Made by a program: the position numbers and the translations under genes
Notes under the pieces: generated by a model
What the model saw: the letters and a program-made list of their open reading frames with translations, nothing else
What the model was told of the DNA's origin: nothing
The model's database searches: none
Part shown: positions 51,748 to 59,078 of the stretch, piece by piece
Numbering within the stretch: position 1 is the stretch's first letter
Layout: each line of letters starts with the position of its first letter
IMG/VR virus record: IMGVR_UViG_3300037067_007633
Coordinates: 64,001 to 128,000 of that record
Strand: one strand, 5' to 3'
Source: a virus
Taxonomy: Duplodnaviria > Caudoviricetes
Length of the DNA stretch: 64,000 nt

Positions 51748-52245
51748 TTATTCCTTAAAAGTGTAAGTTTGAAAACATAAGTCGAACATCTCATAAACAC
51801 CCTTTTCTTTAGCTTGTTTTTTTAATTTTTTCAAATCTATATTATTATCTTTTAAATATTCGTGGATTAAAAATTCTAAAGATTCTTTTTTGCCTCCTTC
51901 TTCTTTTGTTAATTGTGTTAATTTAGCAACTTGCTCAAAAAACGTATCAAAATCAACATCTTTGTTTTTATACATCCACACAATAAAATTTGGATTATAA
52001 TATCTTATAAGACATTGTTTCATTATATATAGAAACAAAAATTCTTTTATAGCATAATTTTCTACAAAATACTCAATATCATTTATAATAACTTTTGAAT
52101 TATAAATAGTGATTTTGATTGTTGTTTGTTGTAATTTTGGATATTCTAATTTCTCTGGTAGTTGTAATTCTACAGTATTGTGTTTTATTGTTGCTATAAT
52201 TAAATATTCGTGCTCAATCAATAATTTTTTTATATTTGAAAACAT
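51748..52245 (-). CDS. hypothetical protein
   Basis: 165-aa ORF overlapping the dnaE C-part stop. Confidence 0.55.
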   Translation of the reverse strand: MFSNIKKLLIEHEYLIIATIKHNTVELQLPEKLEYPKLQQTTIKITIYNSKVIINDIEYFVENYAIKEFLFLYIMKQCLIRYYNPNFIVWMYKNKDVDFDTFFEQVAKLTQLTKEEGGKKESLEFLIHEYLKDNNIDLKKLKKQAKEKGVYEMFDLCFQTYTFKE

Positions 52246-53828
52246 TGTTTAATGATATATCCTTGTCTTCCTCTTGCTTTTTCTAATTGAATTAACGCCG
52301 TGTTTCCTGGATATAAAATAGCCTTCATTTCAACCCATTGGTTTGGAAAACATATAATATTCTCTATTGCTGATGTTCCGTCTGATATTACTAAAAACGC
52401 CATTTTTTGTCCATTTTTTGTTGTTATTTCTCTGGCGGCAAAAATCTCCACAGCAACTACAATATATCCACTTTTCCCATCCACTACTTCTTTACATGTA
52501 CAAGTAGCTGATATTGAATTATTGCACCCATCAACTTTACTGCATGATATTGGGGCTCCTAAATATTCTTTCTCTGTCCACGAAATCCAATCTGGAGTAT
52601 CATTTAGTAAATGTGGGGGGTTGTTAAGTGAAGAGACAAAAGACAACAGTTTCTCTTTACGCTTTATTATACAACCATTTTCAGAACAGTCAAGTATAGA
52701 ATCTTTTAAATTTTTATCTTTGTGTTCTTGAATATATTTTTTCTCTTTTGGTGTTAATTTATTCCAAATATCAAACTCAAAGAGCATGATATTACGATTT
52801 AACAAGAAATAATCTAAAGCCCCAGATGAAATAAATGCGGTGTTTGGTCTAGACCCAATATTATCACTAAAGAATATTAAATAATCTAGCCATACCCAAT
52901 CCTTTATTTTCTTCCCTATTAATATTTCCGCTTTAATTCGTGCTTCTATTATTTTATTTAAAGAAGATTCTCCAACATTTTTAAGATTTGAAATTCCAAA
53001 TCTAATATATTTATTATCAACTATATGAATATTAAGTTTTTCAGATCTAAAATCTGGAACCATAACACTAATATCTTGTTGTTTAGCGTCTGTTACTAAT
53101 TCAAATATTTCCTCGTGTGGTTTTTGTTTGGATTTGGCAAATTGTAAATAGGAACAGTAAAATTGTAGGGGAAAATGGGCTTTACAATAGGCGGAATAAT
53201 AGGCGTCGATTGCATAACAAACGGCGTGACTTTTATTGAAGCTGTAACGCTGACTTTCTTGTATCCATCCAAATATTTCTTCAGCTTTTTTATCATCAAC
53301 AATTCCTGTCTTTTTACATCCTTCTAAAAATTCAATCTTAACTTTTGCCATTACTTCTGGTAGCTTTTTTCCAATAGCTTTTCTGAGTGAATCCCCCTGT
53401 TCGAGGGAGAAGCCGGCAATCTCTTTAGCAATTAAAATGGCGTTCTCTTGATACACCATGATCTGATATGTATCTTTAAGAATAACATCTAAAGATGGAT
53501 GTAAAGATTCAACTTTTTCAATACCATTTTTTCTATCACAATATCTAGCAGTCATGCTTTTAGGTGGACTACCAGAGAGGGATTTCAAACACCCCGGACG
53601 GAGGATACTAACTAAAGCTGCTAGGTGTTCTATGTTCTCTGGCTTCAACTTATTTGCCCACACTTTTCCTAATGGACTTTCAAGTTGGAAAACTCCCTTT
53701 GTTCTTCCGCTTGATAATAAATCCCATGTCTTTTTACATGTAAGTGGAATATTATCAAAATCCAATAGAATATGACCCTTTTCATCTAATTGAAATTCAC
53801 AACCACAATCTAATAACTTTGTTGTCAT
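52230..53828 (-). CDS. dnaE: DNA polymerase III alpha subunit, C-terminal part (fingers/HhH/OB)
   Basis: TKGVFQLES, RPG, VYQE, LRKAIGKK, YSFNKSHAVCY, IRFGISNLKNVG, TKNGQKMAFL. Confidence 0.92.
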   Translation of the reverse strand: MTTKLLDCGCEFQLDEKGHILLDFDNIPLTCKKTWDLLSSGRTKGVFQLESPLGKVWANKLKPENIEHLAALVSILRPGCLKSLSGSPPKSMTARYCDRKNGIEKVESLHPSLDVILKDTYQIMVYQENAILIAKEIAGFSLEQGDSLRKAIGKKLPEVMAKVKIEFLEGCKKTGIVDDKKAEEIFGWIQESQRYSFNKSHAVCYAIDAYYSAYCKAHFPLQFYCSYLQFAKSKQKPHEEIFELVTDAKQQDISVMVPDFRSEKLNIHIVDNKYIRFGISNLKNVGESSLNKIIEARIKAEILIGKKIKDWVWLDYLIFFSDNIGSRPNTAFISSGALDYFLLNRNIMLFEFDIWNKLTPKEKKYIQEHKDKNLKDSILDCSENGCIIKRKEKLLSFVSSLNNPPHLLNDTPDWISWTEKEYLGAPISCSKVDGCNNSISATCTCKEVVDGKSGYIVVAVEIFAAREITTKNGQKMAFLVISDGTSAIENIICFPNQWVEMKAILYPGNTALIQLEKARGRQGYIIKQCFQI

Positions 53829-54094
53829 ATTATTTTAGTCAATTCAATTAAACATTGTTTGCATATATGTGTTCCAGTTTCATCATTTAGAAGCAAACAC
53901 GGTTTTATTATATTTTTAAAAAATTCTTGATAAATTCTACTATATTCCTTATATTTTTCTTCTGTATAATCACCGACCCAATCGTTTTTGGTATAAATAT
54001 GAGAAACAAGTTTGTTGAATTCTTTAGTGTATTTTGGATCATAACAAAAATCACAAATATCGTCTTCTACAATCAAATCATTTTTTATATTCAT
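53825..54094 (-). CDS. zinc-binding hypothetical protein
   Basis: CDFC...HICKQC. Confidence 0.55.
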   Translation of the reverse strand: MNIKNDLIVEDDICDFCYDPKYTKEFNKLVSHIYTKNDWVGDYTEEKYKEYSRIYQEFFKNIIKPCLLLNDETGTHICKQCLIELTKII

Positions 54095-54318
54095 ATTTTC
54101 AAATATCCTAAATTAATAAGGATTTTAATTCCAGTAGGAGTTATAAAATTCCATCCATTTACTTGTTTGACATATCGACATTTTACCAAATTGTTTCTTG
54201 CGGACTTTGAGATTAAATTTCCATCCCATGTGACTTTAGTTAATTGTATTAATTGTTCTATGTTATTTTTTAATATATATTCTGCTACTATTTGGTTTGC
54301 TAACTTTTTATTATCCAT
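54091..54318 (-). CDS. hypothetical protein, possible winged helix
   Basis: LVKCRYV...FITPTG pattern. Confidence 0.5.
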   Translation of the reverse strand: MDNKKLANQIVAEYILKNNIEQLIQLTKVTWDGNLISKSARNNLVKCRYVKQVNGWNFITPTGIKILINLGYLKI

Positions 54319-54322
54319 TATA

Positions 54323-54574
54323 TTATTCCTTCCATTCTAAAGATGTTTTTCCGGTTTTGCTATCTACTACGTAATGCATAACATCATTATTAACCAAAAA
54401 ATTATTAAAACCATGCATATCTGCCATTACAATAAAAAGAAACATTGTACAACACAAAAGAATTAAAGTAATAAATATTGAGAAACGAATTTTGTCATTA
54501 AAATATAAGCTGAGTAATGTTAAGTGAATTAAAAATAGAGACGTAATAGCAATACTCGCACATAACAAAGTCAT
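54323..54574 (-). CDS. small two-TM membrane protein
   Basis: Two hydrophobic helices. Confidence 0.55.
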   Translation of the reverse strand: MTLLCASIAITSLFLIHLTLLSLYFNDKIRFSIFITLILLCCTMFLFIVMADMHGFNNFLVNNDVMHYVVDSKTGKTSLEWKE

Positions 54575-55254
54575 TATTTTTCCTCCTTATTTCGTAGACA
54601 ATTTTTAAATTGTAATCTTGCAGTTCCAGTTTCTTCTCGTGTTTTTGTGAGATACCTTGATGCTGTAAATAGTTTTACTAACATTTGATGACACATTTTA
54701 CAATCAAAAAGTGCATCGTGTGAATTTTCTAGGGTCGCTGTACTCATTCCCATATATTCTAATACTATAGATAATTTTAATTTAGGTAATTCTGGATTAT
54801 TTTCATTCCAATATAACATTAAATAATAAAGATCAAAGAAATTTACTTGATTAAATAATTTTTGTCTACCAGATTTAGCATCCCAAGGTCCAAATCTTTC
54901 ACAGAACCTAGAAATTATAGGTAAATCAAACCCTAAAATATTATATCCAGACATTATTGGAGCAGTATATGTGGAATTACCACGATTATATTTCCCAACC
55001 CAAGCACAAAATTGTTGAAAAACAAGTTTGATATCAGGAGCATTGTCTAATATTTCATGATTAAGTTTATTTACAGCTAACGCTCCAGGTTCAACAGTGT
55101 CCCAATTTTCTGGTTTTATGTAAGAACAAAACCCATCTTTGATTTCTAAAGTTCTAGGATCTAACATTAAACCAGCTATCTGTAAAATTTGTGCTGTTGA
55201 AATGCTAGCACTCGAAGTTTCAATATCCACAATGCAAATATGATTGTAATTCAC
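54574..55254 (-). CDS. DEDDh 3'-5' exonuclease (DnaQ-like)
   Basis: VDIETS, GYNILGFD, SHDALFD. Confidence 0.88.
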   Translation of the reverse strand: MNYNHICIVDIETSSASISTAQILQIAGLMLDPRTLEIKDGFCSYIKPENWDTVEPGALAVNKLNHEILDNAPDIKLVFQQFCAWVGKYNRGNSTYTAPIMSGYNILGFDLPIISRFCERFGPWDAKSGRQKLFNQVNFFDLYYLMLYWNENNPELPKLKLSIVLEYMGMSTATLENSHDALFDCKMCHQMLVKLFTASRYLTKTREETGTARLQFKNCLRNKEEK

Positions 55255-55460
55255 TTTTGATCTCCATTGTTTAATTTATCCATAGCGTCTGCAATTCTAC
55301 GAAGTTGTTCAGAAGTAAAATATCCATCTAAACACGATATAGTTTTGTCTAATGAAAAATATTGTTGTTCTCTAATATCAGATAATTCTTCATTTAATTC
55401 TATATTATTTTCCATTTTGATTTCCTTATTCATAATTGTTAACCAATCTACAAACTTCAT
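55251..55460 (-). CDS. hypothetical protein
   Basis: Short ORF; real start probably ATG 55433. Confidence 0.5.
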   Translation of the reverse strand: MKFVDWLTIMNKEIKMENNIELNEELSDIREQQYFSLDKTISCLDGYFTSEQLRRIADAMDKLNNGDQK

Positions 55461-57311
55461 GTAATTTATCTAGTAATGATATACCAAGTATATCCAATTT
55501 TATTACTCCAAGTGCCTCCAAATCTTTAAATTCCATATCACATATTAAAGATTCGGTTCCCTTATCATAAGCCATAGGACAAAGTTCGTTTAACGGAATG
55601 TGAGAGATAGCTATTCCAGAAGCATGGCGGCTTTTATTACGTCTCGTTCCTTCTAAACGTATTGATTGGGAAAACTTTTTACACAAAGGTCCATCAAGTT
55701 CCCCATCTTCTCTAATAAAACACCATTGTTTTAATTCTTCTTTATGATTTTCTAGTGCCCATTGCACTATCGAGGCATCACCAGTTTCTTCACGCATTTC
55801 TTGTAATTGATCAATTATTTCAGCTTCGTCTGGAATATATTGACTTATTAAGTTCATTTCTTCAAACGATATTCCGCCATGTACCCTTAGCACATCTTTG
55901 ATCGTTGAACGCCCTTGCATTCTACTAAACGTACTAATCTGTGCTACCTTATCTTTTCCAAACTTTTCTTTAATATAAGAAATAATATTATCTCTAAAGT
56001 CTGATTCAAAATCCATATCAATATCAGGTAAAGATATATTATCTTTTGTATTTCTTCCTTTATTGTAAAATCTTGAAAATAGTAAATTGTATTGTAATGG
56101 ATCAGCTTTTGTAATACCAAGCAAATATAGTATTAATGATCCCCCAGCACTTCCACGCCCTACTCCAGTTAATTTATTATTTCTTCTTACATAGTTAATA
56201 ATATCATAAACAATAAGAAAATAATCTTCTAATCCAACCTCTTTTAATATTTGGTATTCCTCATTAAATCTATCAACATATTCTTTAATAGGAATTCCAG
56301 TAGACTCAATTTTACTTTTAAGTTTTTTCCAACCCTCCCTACATAGTTTTCTTAAATACTCAATAGAAGAGGAACCATCGGGGGTAATATATTTGGGTAA
56401 TTGGGGTTGGTTGGTAATGTCATATTCCTCACAAAGTTCGGAAATTTTAACAGTGTTATCTAATTCCTCTTTGGTGTGAATTAGTTGCATTTCTTCGTTA
56501 GAAGGAATATGGTAAGAATCAGATATAAAAAATTGTTTTAACGCAATATCTTCCCCATTTAATTGTTTTTTCTGCAATTCTTGAAAAGTTGTTTGTAAAC
56601 TAGAACATAAAACCACCCTTTGATCTTCCGCATCTTCCCTACGGCAATAATGGGCATCTGGAGTAGCCACAAGTGGTATATTATATTTCCTCCCAATTCC
56701 CCTCATTATTTCCGCTATCTGTTTTGCTTTTGGATTCTTATCTTGGTCAATTAATTGGACTTCAAGGAAAAAGTTTTCCTTTCCAAATGTGTCCCACAAA
56801 TCATTAATAAGAGATAGGCAATTAAGTTCGTAAGCATCCTTTAAAGTGTCATCATCGTTGAAAATCCTGGAAGTAAATAGGGAACCTAAATGTCCGCAAA
56901 TAGCTATGATATTTCCCCTATTAATTTTCGCTATTTCCACTAGATTTAATCTTGGCTTATAATAGAAGTTTTCCGGCTTATTTGACGTGCTAACAATCTT
57001 TATTAAATCTTTCCAACCCTCTTTATTCTTCGCAAGAAGAACAATGTGTTGAAGTTTACGTTGTTGTTTTAACTTAGGATCTTCCTCACAACAATACGCT
57101 TCAATTCCCAAGATGGGTTTTATCTTAGCTTTTTTCATTTCCTTGAAGAAACTTACAGCACCAGAAATATTTCCATGGTCTGTTATGGCACACGAGGTCA
57201 TTCCTAATTCTTTACAGCGTTTTGCAATATCTTTAGGTTTAGATATGCCATCCAACAAACTATAGGTAGTCCACACCACCCTTAAGTATGGACGTGAGTG
57301 GGTATATACAA
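55426..57311 (-). CDS. dnaE: DNA polymerase III alpha subunit, N-terminal part (PHP plus palm); inferred 622 aa across a 17-nt gap at 57268-57284
   Basis: YSLLDG, TDHG, GIE, DAHY, GRGSAGGS, PDIDMD, RHASG, KLDILG; the missing MYIPTHVHT is encoded from TTG 57311 in another frame. Confidence 0.9.
57268..57293 (-). other. candidate translational bypass element (17-nt coding gap plus hairpin)
   Basis: Minus strand GTC CAT ACT | TAA GGGTGGTGTGG ACT | ACC TAT AGT; matched ACT codons; stem GUCCAUAC/GUGUGGAC. Confidence 0.7.
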
Positions 57312-57313
57312 TG

Positions 57314-57326
57314 ATTTATTCTCTAC
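57314..57326. repeat. 13-bp direct repeat, copy 1 (ATTTATTCTCTAC)
   Basis: Exact match to 58442-58454. Confidence 0.9.
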
Positions 57327-58393
57327 GTCCATAATTTTAGGTGGTCCTCCTTTCCAGCTACTAATGCTGCTAAAAATTTATAATATTGCATATCTAAATT
57401 TTTCCTTGATTGATTGACAGTTTTATGAACCCATTGTAGATTGTTTTCAACATATTCTAAATTATTATCTATGCGATCTAATGATGCTGTATTTATACAT
57501 TTTATATATTCTTGAGAATTGTTTGGTAATATAATTTTTTGTCCTGTTATAGCACAACACCCATTTTGTTTTATAAATAATTCTAAAGCATATTCTTTAT
57601 CAATTTCAAAATTAATTTTCCGTTTTTTAGCATTATATATAATATCTTTCCAAAAACTTTTATATATAATTAAATTATTGGTGTTAACACTATTTTGTTC
57701 TATTAGCGGATTTTGTATTAATTTACATAAATTGATAAAATCTTTTATTGATAATGAAGCTTTTATTTTGTTTATATCTTTATGTAACCACTGAACATTA
57801 TCTAAAGAATATCCTAAAGAACTATCTTTTCTATCTAATGAAGCTGTTTTAAAATTTTGTTCTAATGATATTGGTAAATCACTTAAAGCACATTCATTAT
57901 TTTGTTTTTCAAATAAATCCCAAGCTTCCTTTATAGTAATATTAAAATTTATATTTCTATTTTTAGCACAACATTTTATACTAGACCATAAATTTCCACT
58001 TATACCACCGTGCCCCTTCCATAAATGATTTTCTATGCCGTATTTATATGTACATTTACCACAAGATTTTACATTACCATTTTTTAATAAAGATACATGA
58101 ACATTTCTTTTTTTGCCACATTCACATTCACACTCCCAAATTGTTGTACCATTTTTACTTTTACCAACTTTTTTTATTACAGTAAGTTTATTAAATTTTT
58201 GTCCAGCGACATCTAAAGCAGAACCAAAATCTATTCTAGGTATATTATATTTATCTATGTAATTATATATAGTGTGTACAGTAGCACCAACCATTTTAGC
58301 AATATAATATGGTCCCTTTTTATTTTTAGTATATTCTTCTTCTAAAAATTCTTTAGTTAATATTTTATCAAACTTCATTTGATTAATCTCCAT
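57323..58393 (-). CDS. HNH-like homing endonuclease with HTH, zinc module and two tandem nuclease domains
   Basis: WECECECG...VKSCGKC; two copies of KQN..CA...TASLDR.D....Y...N.QW.HK..N; probable start ATG 58378 with GGAG SD. Confidence 0.8.
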   Translation of the reverse strand: MEINQMKFDKILTKEFLEEEYTKNKKGPYYIAKMVGATVHTIYNYIDKYNIPRIDFGSALDVAGQKFNKLTVIKKVGKSKNGTTIWECECECGKKRNVHVSLLKNGNVKSCGKCTYKYGIENHLWKGHGGISGNLWSSIKCCAKNRNINFNITIKEAWDLFEKQNNECALSDLPISLEQNFKTASLDRKDSSLGYSLDNVQWLHKDINKIKASLSIKDFINLCKLIQNPLIEQNSVNTNNLIIYKSFWKDIIYNAKKRKINFEIDKEYALELFIKQNGCCAITGQKIILPNNSQEYIKCINTASLDRIDNNLEYVENNLQWVHKTVNQSRKNLDMQYYKFLAALVAGKEDHLKLWT

Positions 58394-58454: not shown

Positions 58455-58629
58455 AAAAATTAACTAACTTTTCAAAATCCCAAAATACTTCTGACCAACA
58501 ATCAGAAAAATTTTCCGTACATACTTCTTCCCACCAATACTTTTCTTTACAGTTTGGGCATTCTCCATATTCCCATTCTTTAGCTTCAAATTCCGTATTA
58601 CAAAAAGGGCATATAATATCTATCATCAT
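58444..58629 (-). CDS. small zinc-ribbon protein
   Basis: CPFC and CPNC. Confidence 0.65.
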   Translation of the reverse strand: MMIDIICPFCNTEFEAKEWEYGECPNCKEKYWWEEVCTENFSDCWSEVFWDFEKLVNFCRE

Positions 58630-59078
58630 ATTTTAATATATTTAGTATTTGGTTTTATATTTTTGTCGAAGACAACTATTGCTGATGGAAAAGGAGCGGG
58701 AACTTTTGATTGGGAAAATTTTAATCTCCCCTTAATAAATCTAATTTCCCCCTTAATACAATATTCGTGCCACCATTTAGTATCTACTCTAGCGGGAATT
58801 AGAAATACACAGACGGTTCCTTTTAGAGATTCTTTATATCCTTTTTGTATAAACTTCCCTATTAATCTTCCATATGGAGGATTACAAAATACTACTTTAT
58901 ATTTTGACCAATCTTGAATTAATGAGTTATCATCTTTGGTGTAAAAATTATCACATAAGTTGTTCTCTGTGGTTGCGGCTGCATCTAATTCAAAGCAAAA
59001 TTCCGCGTGTAATATGTCAAAAATATGTGGTGGAGTTTCCCATTCATTTGATTTAGAACTTAATAATGAATTATTCAT
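58626..59078 (-). CDS. phage N6-adenine DNA methyltransferase
   Basis: EWETP, LDAAA, FCNPPY, LIPARVDTKWW, GRLKF, APFPS. Confidence 0.9.
   Translation of the reverse strand: MNNSLLSSKSNEWETPPHIFDILHAEFCFELDAAATTENNLCDNFYTKDDNSLIQDWSKYKVVFCNPPYGRLIGKFIQKGYKESLKGTVCVFLIPARVDTKWWHEYCIKGEIRFIKGRLKFSQSKVPAPFPSAIVVFDKNIKPNTKYIKI

What the first reader, a model, noticed from the sequence alone, without database searches (positions are those of the whole stretch)
57259..57311. Candidate programmed ribosomal bypass: 17-nt coding gap inside the PHP H-x-H motif of phage dnaE
Seen: the minus strand reads TTG TAT ATA CCC ACT CAC GTC CAT ACT [TAA GGGTGGTGTGG ACT] ACC TAT AGT TTG TTG GAT GGC. The first nine codons (MYIPTHVHT) are the canonical DnaE start but hit a stop; the rest of the gene is in another frame. 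Skipping exactly 17 nt (57284-57268) gives MYIPTHVHTTYSLLDG, with the correct H-x-H-x-x-Y-S-x-L-D-G spacing. The codon before the stop (ACT, 57287-57285) matches the last codon of the gap (ACT, 57270-57268). The segment folds into an 8-bp stem (GUCCAUAC/GUGUGGAC) with the stop in the loop. The gap is very G-rich for this AT-rich genome and resembles an SD (UAAGGGUGGUG versus UAAGGAGGUG). The other PHP metal-ligand motifs (LDG, TDH, GIE, QH, GH, DAH) are intact, so the H-x-H is probably needed. Established: matched take-off/landing codons, an adjacent stop, a hairpin and a mini-SD define T4 gene 60 bypassing (50 nt); matched codons and a hairpin also mark Magnusiomyces mitochondrial byps. Inference: a minimal hop after only 9 codons, so without a long nascent-peptide signal, in a replicative polymerase. 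Alternative: RNA-level excision of ACTTAAGGGTGGTGTGG gives the same protein and obeys group I splice-site rules (cut after a U in a U-G pair, ending in G), but it would need a trans-acting catalyst.
Basis: partly seen in the sequence, partly recalled or inferred. Interest (0 to 1): 0.95.

Follow-up and report, generated by a model that had tools for sequence, protein, structure and literature searches.

The report
Ribosome-hop gap in phage dnaE
The only DNA polymerase gene of this uncultured 160-kb phage is broken after 16 codons by 17 real bases that begin with a stop codon, and some 35 related versions of the same break show that ribosomes most likely hop over it, a very rare way of reading a gene that is still untested at the bench.

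Summary
On the minus strand a 16-codon ORF (ATG 57332, MDVENKSLYIPTHVHT) ends in ACT-TAA. Then 17 nt later, after a second ACT, the 617-aa DnaE body resumes with the spacing seen in gapless relatives. Two independent landfill metagenomes hold the identical sequence, so it is not an assembly artefact.

The closest relative (73% aa) keeps ACT, a stop, 17 nt and ACT. It has a TAA in the body frame just before the landing codon and no start codon for 46 conserved codons (dN/dS 0.17). That excludes a -1 frameshift and a restart there.

A pattern scan found 66 more IMG/VR dnaE genes with HVHS, a stop and a gap. The 33 junction types have gaps of 6-17 nt in all three frames, and 24 have matching take-off and landing codons. 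Two mRNA hairpins flank the take-off codon and show compensatory changes.

The gap belongs to an HNH homing-endonuclease cassette, which is intact upstream in this window. A near-isogenic gapless/gapped pair shows the cassette replacing the dnaE 5' end.

Best reading: a short programmed translational hop, a counterpart of T4 gene 60, at about 0.65. Main rival: a micro-ORF plus restart at GTG.

This scan had already noted the same phenomenon in at least 11 other genomes. I found no paper that describes it.

The parts
57323..58393 (-). Free-standing HNH/EndoVII-type homing endonuclease gene (356 aa). Its last codons (..K L W T stop) overlap the SD and the first 10 nt of the short dnaE ORF.
   Evidence: PHROG endonuclease families phrog_3322 (1e-31), phrog_1035 and phrog_374. 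Relatives in cultured phages are annotated HNH endonuclease. Homologues of 44-46% identity sit at the same place, overlapping ORF1 by 10-17 nt, in L090, L100, L115, L118 and L129.
57346..57355 (-). Shine-Dalgarno region GGAAAGGAGG for the short ORF, 13 nt before the ATG.
   Evidence: Read from the sequence. GAAAGGAGGA is conserved in L082. Other alleles have AAGGAG 7-9 nt before the ATG.
57285..57332 (-). ORF1: 16 codons, MDVENKSLYIPTHVHT. It encodes the first PHP strand with the H-x-H metal ligands.
   Evidence: Homologous 13-16-codon ORFs are present in all 72 gapped loci.
57321..57332 (-). 5' arm of the 5' hairpin (AUGGACGU-A-GAG), which includes the start codon.
   Evidence: MFE fold (-12.5 kcal/mol, z -3.8). 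Family helix 98.1% paired, with compensatory changes AU/GC and GC/AU.
57288..57298 (-). 3' arm of the 5' hairpin (CUC-ACGUCCAU, the H-V-H codons). It ends on the base before the take-off codon.
57285..57287 (-). Take-off codon ACT (Thr).
   Evidence: ACT also in L082. TCN in the other 35 alleles.
57282..57284 (-). Stop codon TAA immediately 3' of the take-off codon.
   Evidence: A TAA or TAG follows the take-off codon in L082 and L086. In the 66 scan loci a TAR stop there was part of the search pattern, so its presence in them is not independent.
57268..57284 (-). 17-nt coding gap TAAGGGTGGTGTGGACT (stop through landing codon).
   Evidence: Identical in independent metagenomes. Unique in the genome.
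57264..57281 (-). 3' hairpin GGGUGGU-GUGG-ACUACCU. It can extend by UA/UA (57284-57283 with 57262-57261). The landing codon opens the 3' arm.
   Evidence: -9.3 kcal/mol, z -4.4. In most other alleles the equivalent hairpin starts at the stop codon and pairs with the Ser-Leu codons, with covariation.
57268..57270 (-). Landing codon ACT, which matches the take-off codon.
   Evidence: ACT in L082. 24 of 33 junction types share the first two bases with the take-off codon.
55426..57267 (-). Body of the DnaE N-terminal half (resumes at ACC 57267-57265): PHP and pol III alpha domains.
   Evidence: Pfam PF02811 and PF07733. Alignment to Taq DnaE 2hpi. dN/dS 0.16 against L082.
57274..57279 (-). Two in-frame GTG codons inside the gap: possible restart sites for the rival two-ORF reading. 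The only SD-like bases are 0-1 nt upstream.
   Evidence: Absent in L082.
57269..57293 (-). It excludes both conserved hairpins.
   Evidence: -10.6 kcal/mol. Not present in L082. One apparently compensatory pair (57291/57271) in a low-depth variant contig.
52230..53828 (-). DnaE C-terminal half (finger and HhH domains), a separate ORF.
   Evidence: Pfam PF17657 and PF14579. The same split occurs in gapless relatives.

Best explanation
The 17 nt are the coding gap of a short programmed translational bypass, and the gap is part of a homing-endonuclease cassette that replaced the 5' end of dnaE. Ribosomes start at AUG 57332 and make MDVENKSLYIPTHVHT. They then pause with peptidyl-tRNA(Thr) on ACU (57287-57285) and UAA in the A site. 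Instead of terminating, the peptidyl-tRNA leaves its codon, the mRNA slides 17 nt, and the tRNA re-pairs with ACU at 57270-57268. Decoding resumes at ACC 57267, giving one polypeptide with the intact H-x-H-x-x-Y-S-x-L-D-G motif.

Two mRNA hairpins are the likely signals. The first is a 5' hairpin whose 3' arm (the H-V-H codons) ends on the base before the take-off codon. It can re-form only as the ribosome moves forward, so it may act as an exit-side driver. The second is a 3' hairpin made from the gap itself.

The gap probably exists because it interrupts the endonuclease's target in dnaE and so protects the carrier genome.

Shown: the gap is real, conserved and family-wide; the gene is under purifying selection; the hairpins covary; the cassette structure. 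Inferred: the hop itself, its efficiency, the roles of the hairpins, and the target and immunity of the endonuclease.
For: (1) The gap is real: identical contigs in two independent studies.
(2) dnaE is the only polymerase found in the 160-kb record. All nine PHP ligands are kept, but H-x-H lies only in ORF1.
(3) L082 (73% aa) keeps ACT, a stop, 17 nt and ACT, although 7 of the 17 gap bases differ. Its body frame has TAA directly before the landing codon, and there is no ATG/GTG/TTG for 46 codons that evolve at dN/dS 0.165.
(4) All 66 of 66 IMG/VR hits to an 'Y-V/I-P-x-H-V-H-S/T-stop' DNA pattern are dnaE 5' ends with a gap. A sister pattern gave only 13 chance hits in the larger metagenome set.
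(5) There are 33 junction types, with gaps of 6-17 nt in frames +0 (7), +1 (12) and +2 (14). Landing and take-off codons share their first two bases in 24 of 33. Of those 24, 19 have no restart codon.
(6) Start-less gapped genes evolve at dN/dS 0.02-0.12 over dS 0.5 to >2.
(7) 5' hairpin: 98.1% of cells paired, double compensatory changes at two pairs, 0 of 500 shuffles reach the score, and slid registers give 30-58%. G-U pairs place the structure on the mRNA strand.
(8) 3' hairpin: its 5' arm starts at the stop codon, with covarying arms TAGTGA/TCACTA, TAACGA/TCGTTA, TAGCGA/TCGCTA and TAGAGAAT/ATTCTCTA.
(9) Cassette: an intact HNH endonuclease lies upstream here and in five other alleles, with remnants elsewhere. 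Gapped alleles are scattered over the DnaE tree (21 changes). The near-isogenic pair L094/L153 (98.5% aa) is identical up to the old ATG AAY. Then come an endonuclease remnant, SD, ORF1 and a 10-nt gap, then about 50 nt of diverged sequence, then identity again.
(10) The architecture parallels the published signals of T4 gene 60: matched codons, adjacent stop, 5' stem-loop, A-site stem-loop, mini-SD and the mobA cassette (bioRxiv 10.1101/2024.12.09.627546; 10.1101/2022.08.31.505936).
Against: There are no protein or RNA data, so the hop is inferred from sequence alone. In this window two GTG codons in the body frame lie inside the gap, so a restart cannot be excluded here. Nine of the 33 junction types have a non-matching 'landing' codon (ACT or GCY after TCN). 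Eight of those nine have an ATG or GTG at the right place (Fisher p = 7e-4, not corrected for phylogeny), which suggests that part of the family may restart rather than hop. The nascent peptide (16 aa) is too short to carry a gene 60-type signal. In this window the landing codon sits in the 3' arm of a stable hairpin, which must melt before landing. The SD of ORF1 is 13 nt from the ATG. My scan pattern required H-V-H, S/T and TAA/TAG, so constancy of those features is partly built in.
Confidence: 0.65

Rival explanations
1. Micro-split gene. ORF1 is released at TAA as a free 16-aa peptide. The same or another ribosome restarts at GTG 57279 or 57276 and makes a DnaE body without H-x-H. The peptide either supplies the first PHP strand in trans or is dispensable.
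For: Two in-frame GTG codons lie 2 and 5 nt after the stop. In the family, 8 of the 9 junction types whose landing codon does not match have an ATG or GTG exactly where a restart would be needed. dnaE is already split into two polypeptides in this whole family.
Against: L082, the closest relative with the same 17-nt gap, has no restart codon and a body-frame TAA before the landing codon. Its 46 start-less codons are still under purifying selection. Nineteen junction types have no restart codon, and their genes evolve at dN/dS 0.02-0.12. The GTGs here have no usable SD spacing. A free 14-16-aa peptide acting as a core barrel strand is unprecedented for PHP domains (my own knowledge).
Confidence: 0.17
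2. Programmed -1 (or +2) ribosomal frameshift at or before ACT-TAA, giving HVHT-LRVVW-TTYSLLDG with six extra residues.
For: In this window the -1 frame is open from 31 nt upstream of the stop through the gap.
Against: There is no slippery heptamer. L082 has TAA in that frame inside the gap. Family gaps fall in all three frames, and several alleles carry body-frame stops (L109, L094). The insertion would break the conserved H-x-H-x-x-Y-S spacing.
Confidence: 0.03
3. RNA-level removal of the 17 nt (a micro-intron or other processing) before translation.
For: The excised product would encode the same protein. The gap lies in a hairpin.
Against: No Rfam family matches within 14 kb. Homologous gaps are as short as 6-7 nt, far below any known self-splicing or enzyme-spliced intron. 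The conserved requirement is a stop codon directly after a codon that matches the last codon of the gap, which is a translational signature rather than a splicing one.
Confidence: 0.04
4. Non-functional scar. The cassette broke dnaE, and the phage is defective or relies on the host replicase.
For: The record is only 85% complete, and the function of the gene is untested.
Against: Strong purifying selection acts on gapped genes over long divergence. ORF1, both hairpins and the matched codons are conserved. The identical allele occurs in three samples from different habitats. No other polymerase is found in the record.
Confidence: 0.04

Closest known systems
Phage T4 gene 60 50-nt translational bypass with the mobA HNH homing-endonuclease cassette (Huang 1988; Bonocora et al. 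2011; Manning & Atkins bioRxiv 10.1101/2022.08.31.505936; 10.1101/2024.12.09.627546)
   Same: Matched take-off and landing codons. A stop codon directly 3' of the take-off codon. A stem-loop upstream that can form only as mRNA leaves the ribosome. A stem-loop that begins at the stop or A site. An SD-like stretch in the gap. A free-standing HNH endonuclease gene directly upstream that overlaps the start of the short ORF. The cassette carries its own copy of the replaced host-gene segment. Patchy, mobile distribution in an essential replication gene.
   Different: The host gene differs (dnaE, not the topoisomerase II subunit), and there is no sequence homology. The gap is 17 nt here and 6-12 nt in most relatives, against 50 nt (20 nt in one gene 60 clade). 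Only 13-16 codons precede take-off, so the KKYK-type nascent-peptide signal cannot exist. The 5' hairpin abuts the take-off codon instead of lying 9 nt upstream. The take-off tRNA is Thr or Ser, not Gly. There is no experimental proof.
Low-level stop hopping in E. coli (Weiss et al. 1987, forward hops of +5/+6; O'Connor 1989; Kane 1992), as cited
   Same: Peptidyl-tRNA moves from a codon followed by a stop to a matching or synonymous codon a few bases downstream, whatever the frame. The 6-nt alleles (TCT TAA TCT) have exactly this form.
   Different: Those hops are unprogrammed, about 1% efficient and found in synthetic or over-expressed genes. Here the arrangement is conserved in an essential gene, with flanking structures.
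Magnusiomyces mitochondrial byps (Lang et al. 2014) and the Streptomyces phage phiHau3 terminase bypass (PMC10732093)
   Same: Natural coding gaps with matched or similar take-off and landing codons and a local hairpin.
   Different: Byps are repeated GC-rich mobile elements in many genes of one genome. This 17-mer is unique in its genome and is tied to one site of one gene. The phiHau3 bypass is triggered by a rare UUA codon, not by a stop.

Membership tests
Programmed translational bypass (gene 60 type) | Matched take-off and landing codons that flank a non-coding gap | tested here: met
   ACT/ACT in the window and in L082. 24 of 33 junction types match in their first two bases.
Programmed translational bypass (gene 60 type) | Stop codon immediately 3' of the take-off codon | tested here: met
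   TAA at 57284-57282. TAG in L082 and L086. In the pattern-derived loci the stop was required by the search.
Programmed translational bypass (gene 60 type) | Stem-loop beginning at the stop or A site | tested here: inconclusive
   A predicted hairpin in the gap (-9.3 kcal/mol). Family hairpins start at the stop and covary. In the window the arm pairs with the landing codon rather than the Ser-Leu codons. Function is untested.
Programmed translational bypass (gene 60 type) | 5' stem-loop that forms on the exiting mRNA | tested here: met
   An 11-bp hairpin at 57332-57321/57298-57288. Family helix 98.1% paired with compensatory changes. A role as driver is inferred.
Programmed translational bypass (gene 60 type) | Nascent-peptide signal about 14-30 residues before take-off | tested here: not met
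   ORF1 has only 16 codons (13-14 in relatives), and no KKYK-like motif.
Programmed translational bypass (gene 60 type) | One polypeptide made from two ORFs | not testable with these tools
   No proteomic or RNA data. No RNA run was listed.
Programmed translational bypass (gene 60 type) | Homology to the gene 60/mobA element | tested here: not met
   The host gene is different. The 2022 survey of gene 60 homologues does not mention a polymerase.
Homing-endonuclease cassette | Free-standing endonuclease gene next to the interrupted site, with patchy distribution and replaced or co-converted flanks | tested here: met
Homing-endonuclease cassette | The endonuclease cuts the gapless allele and spares the gapped one | not testable with these tools
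   Needs a cleavage assay.
Programmed -1/+1 ribosomal frameshift | Slippery site and a fixed frame relation between the two ORFs | tested here: not met
   No slippery heptamer. Gaps fall in all three frames, and L082, L094 and L109 have body-frame stops.
Self-splicing or enzyme-spliced intron | Recognisable intron RNA structure and adequate length | tested here: not met
   No Rfam hit. Gaps are 6-17 nt.
Mitochondrial byp-type mobile elements | Many related copies inserted in different genes of one genome | tested here: not met
   The 17-mer and its core are unique in the 160-kb genome.

The most novel reading that the evidence does not exclude
Uncultured phages carry a whole family of minimal bypass cassettes (6-17 nt) in their essential replicase gene, spread by an HNH homing endonuclease. 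In these cassettes a 13-16-residue nascent chain, a stop codon, a matching codon and two flanking hairpins are enough for an efficient ribosome hop. This would mean that programmed bypassing needs no long nascent-peptide signal, and that it arose independently of T4 gene 60 as the standard way for a homing cassette to protect its own target site.
Probability: 0.5. Interest if true: 0.9.

Novelty: new variant of a known kind. Interest (0 to 1): 0.8.

Why it matters
In bacteria and phages, natural programmed bypassing rests on T4 gene 60 and its homologues, plus one Streptomyces phage candidate. A second, unrelated family in an essential polymerase gene would show that the mechanism is a recurrent evolutionary solution and not a one-off. 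It has about 35 natural variants in gap length, frame, codon pair and hairpin sequence. That gives a ready-made mutational series for asking which signals are truly needed for take-off, sliding and landing, including whether a nascent-peptide signal is dispensable for short hops. It also matters for annotation. Gene callers truncate these dnaE genes: about 25 of the 120 closest database proteins start inside or after the PHP motif. The apparent second class, with a restart codon and a mismatched landing codon, may record a transition between hopping and gene splitting.

Tried and rejected
- blastn of the region against 50,697 phage records: no match. Protein search: no cultured relative above 35% identity.
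- Rfam scan of 14 kb at E<=1: only a chance miRNA hit.
- Repeats of the 17-mer or its core in the genome: none, so it is not a multi-copy byp-like element.
- RNA evidence: no RNA holder was listed among the public runs, so retention of the gap in mRNA could not be checked.
- Metagenome-wide scan for more Thr-type (ACN) take-off alleles: 13 hits, all chance matches with no dnaE. The window's own clade therefore stays at two full alleles plus one fragment.
- The fragment is X1 record 5 (197 nt, depth 2.6). By hand it reconstructs to ACT TAA GGTGGTGTGA ACC ACC TAT, a 16-nt gap with landing ACC and a body-frame TGA. Only 14 of its 17 substitutions were listed, so I treat it as a lead and not as evidence.
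It excludes the two conserved hairpins and is absent in L082.
- A phage-encoded suppressor or special tRNA: the genome has only tRNA-Lys, Met, Leu and Ile.
- Other copies of the endonuclease in the genome: none.
- A clear 3' cassette boundary between the window and L082: not found; identity is about 75-90% throughout the first 900 nt.
- Complex prediction was not used, because the ORF1 peptide is below the tool's 30-residue minimum.
Full report
**What is there.** The window is part of a 160-kb IMG/VR virus record (85% complete, 30% GC). On the minus strand, an SD (GGAAAGGAGG, 57355-57346) and ATG 57332 open a 16-codon ORF, MDVENKSLYIPTHVHT. It ends in ACT (57287-57285) followed by TAA (57284-57282). 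After GGGTGGTGTGG and a second ACT (57270-57268), the frame of the 617-aa DnaE N-terminal half continues with ACC TAT AGT TTG TTG GAT GGC.

The long ORF carries PHP and pol III alpha domains but starts at profile position 6 of PHP. Aligned with Taq DnaE, it holds seven of the nine metal ligands. The H-x-H pair is encoded only in the short ORF. Skipping 57284-57268 restores the spacing seen in 20 distant relatives and in 95 gapless members of the same family.

dnaE is the only polymerase detectable in the record. As in all relatives, it is also split into N and C halves around a DnaQ-like exonuclease gene.

**Is it real?** Contigs from two other studies (landfill metagenomes; the window's likely source is groundwater) cover the site with no difference and no gap: 898 nt and 301 nt. 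An assembly artefact is therefore excluded. The 17-mer is unique in the genome.

**The closest relative.** The nearest database protein (P0006, 73% identity) had been called from an internal ATG. Its contig L082 reads MDVENNILYVPLHVHT, then TAG, then GTGGGATATAA ACT, then ACG CAT TCG CTT CTT GAT. So take-off ACT, an adjacent stop, a 17-nt gap and landing ACT are all kept, although 7 of the 17 gap bases differ.

In L082 the body frame has TAA directly before the landing ACT, and no ATG/GTG/TTG follows for 46 codons. Those codons evolve at dN/dS 0.165, and the whole body at 0.16 with dS 1.2. A -1 frameshift and a restart are both impossible there, yet the region is clearly translated.

**The family.** A DNA pattern for Y-V/I-P-x-H-V-H-S/T-stop found 66 stretches in IMG/VR, and every one is a dnaE 5' end with a gap. 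A sister pattern in the larger metagenome collection gave only 13 chance hits, which calibrates the specificity.

With four further loci, this gives 72 loci, 37 alleles and 33 junction types:
- Gap lengths (stop through landing codon) are 6, 7, 8, 9, 10, 11, 12 and 17 nt.
- The frames are +0 (7 types), +1 (12) and +2 (14).
- The codon before the resumed reading shares its first two bases with the take-off codon in 24 of 33 types. Examples are TCT TAA TCT, TCG TAA A TCG and TCT TAG CGA TCT.
- Of those 24, 19 have no restart codon, and several carry a body-frame stop just upstream.
- Start-less gapped genes evolve at dN/dS 0.02-0.12 over dS 0.5 to more than 2.

A mechanism that ignores frame and needs no start codon is required. 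Re-pairing of the peptidyl-tRNA on a matching codon fits. The scan pattern fixed H-V-H, S/T and TAA/TAG, so the constancy of those features is partly built in.

**RNA structures.** Two hairpins flank the take-off codon in nearly all alleles.
- *5' hairpin.* The first nine bases of ORF1 pair with the nine bases of the H-V-H codons, ending on the base before the take-off codon. On 42 distinct sequences, 98.1% of cells pair. Two pairs show double compensatory changes (AU 39/GC 2; GC 29/AU 11/GU 2). No shuffle of 500 reaches the covariation score, and slid registers give 30-58%. G-U pairs place the structure on the mRNA strand. This explains why ORF1 has a fixed length and a conserved MDV/MGV/MDM start.
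- *3' hairpin.* It starts at the stop codon and pairs the gap with the Ser-Leu codons of YSLLDG. Its arms covary: TAGTGA/TCACTA, TAACGA/TCGTTA, TAGCGA/TCGCTA and TAGAGAAT/ATTCTCTA.

In the window the 5' hairpin is AUGGACGU-A-GAG/CUC-ACGUCCAU (-12.5 kcal/mol). Because the Ser codon here is AGT, the 3' hairpin is re-made as GGGUGGU-GUGG-ACUACCU (-9.3 kcal/mol). Together they form the MFE fold (-21.8 kcal/mol).

**The cassette.** The ORF directly upstream (57323-58393) is an HNH/EndoVII-type endonuclease, and its last codons overlap the SD and start of ORF1. Homologues (44-46% identity) sit in the same overlapping position in five other alleles, and truncated remnants occur in more. The remaining loci have the normal PD-(D/E)XK neighbour gene upstream. 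Gapped alleles are scattered through the DnaE tree, with 21 state changes among 150 sequences.

A near-isogenic pair settles the structure. L094 (10-nt gap) and the gapless L153 are 98.5% identical in protein. Their DNA is identical up to the old start, ATG AAY. L094 then has the last 38 codons of the endonuclease, an SD, ORF1 and the gap, followed by about 50 nt of diverged sequence and then identity again. The net insertion inside the motif is exactly 10 nt. L082 likewise keeps about 30 nt of the endonuclease 3' end. The gap is therefore brought in by a mobile element that replaces the dnaE 5' end with its own copy.

**Mechanism proposed.** These steps are inferred:
1. The ribosome translates 16 codons and stalls with tRNA(Thr) on ACU and UAA in the A site.
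2. The peptidyl-tRNA unpairs.
3. The mRNA slides 17 nt.
4. The tRNA re-pairs on the second ACU.
5. Decoding resumes at ACC.

The 5' hairpin can form only once its 3' arm has left the ribosome, so it would favour forward movement. This is the role now proposed for the 5' and extended stem-loops of gene 60. The 3' hairpin occupies the position of the gene 60 A-site stem-loop. The G-rich gap may also pair with the anti-SD. The gap would protect the carrier from its own endonuclease, as shown for mobA and gene 60 (cited).

**Caveats and rivals.** There are no protein or RNA data. This window has two GTG codons in the body frame inside the gap, so a restart that yields a body without H-x-H cannot be excluded here.

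Family-wide, nine junction types have a non-matching landing codon (ACT or GCY after TCN), and eight of those nine have an ATG or GTG at the right place (Fisher p = 7e-4, uncorrected for phylogeny). Part of the family may therefore restart, or may tolerate a first-position mismatch. Frameshifting, RNA excision and a dead gene are each contradicted by several observations; see the rival explanations.

**Comparison and novelty.** The arrangement works like T4 gene 60 with mobA. It is not a member of that family: the gene is different, there is no homology, the gap is much shorter, and there is no room for the nascent-peptide signal. The papers I could search describe natural bypassing only in gene 60 and its homologues, in the phiHau3 terminase gene, and in yeast mitochondria. 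None mentions dnaE.

Earlier notes of this scan had already flagged the same phenomenon in at least 11 other genomes, with gaps of 4-68 nt. I re-derived their main claims independently here. The window adds the Thr-codon, 17-nt variant with an intact endonuclease and a re-made 3' hairpin.

Noticed in passing
window 52230-57332 (minus strand): dnaE is split into an N half (617 aa) and a C half (532 aa). They are separated by five small ORFs, including a DnaQ/RNase T-like exonuclease (54574-55254). The same split, with the exonuclease between the halves, occurs in gapless relatives, so it is ancestral to the family and independent of the gap.
   Followed up: partly
L082:4397-6476: In the closest relative, the C half of dnaE carries Pfam hits for an intein splicing domain and a LAGLIDADG endonuclease. 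This is a second kind of selfish element in the same polymerase gene.
   Followed up: no
window 57323-58393: The endonuclease here has 356 aa against about 240 in its homologues. It contains two copies of the ASLDR-D...N-QW-HK-N nuclease motif (about residues 143-214 and 298-332), which suggests an internal duplication.
   Followed up: partly
L083-L152 (family table): Alleles whose landing codon does not match the take-off codon almost always have an ATG or GTG exactly at the resumption point, and matched alleles mostly have none. This may mark two decoding modes, hop and restart, or a transition between them.
   Followed up: partly
window 57203-57354, run X1 record 5: A 197-nt, low-depth contig from the groundwater sample is a relative about 86% identical. 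Its gap seems to be 16 nt, with landing ACC and a body-frame TGA. Only 14 of its 17 substitutions were listed, so the reconstruction is incomplete.
   Followed up: partly
window 58626-59078: A Dam-type N6-adenine DNA methyltransferase gene (Pfam PF05869, 1.9e-31) lies upstream of the endonuclease. In most relatives a PD-(D/E)XK nuclease gene occupies the position upstream of dnaE.
   Followed up: no
database proteins P0013-P0124: About 25 of the 120 closest database proteins are called from MYSLLDG, MTHYSLLDG, LLDG or out-of-frame starts such as MSILRWAMYSLLDG. Gene callers therefore systematically mis-annotate the gapped dnaE genes.
   Followed up: partly
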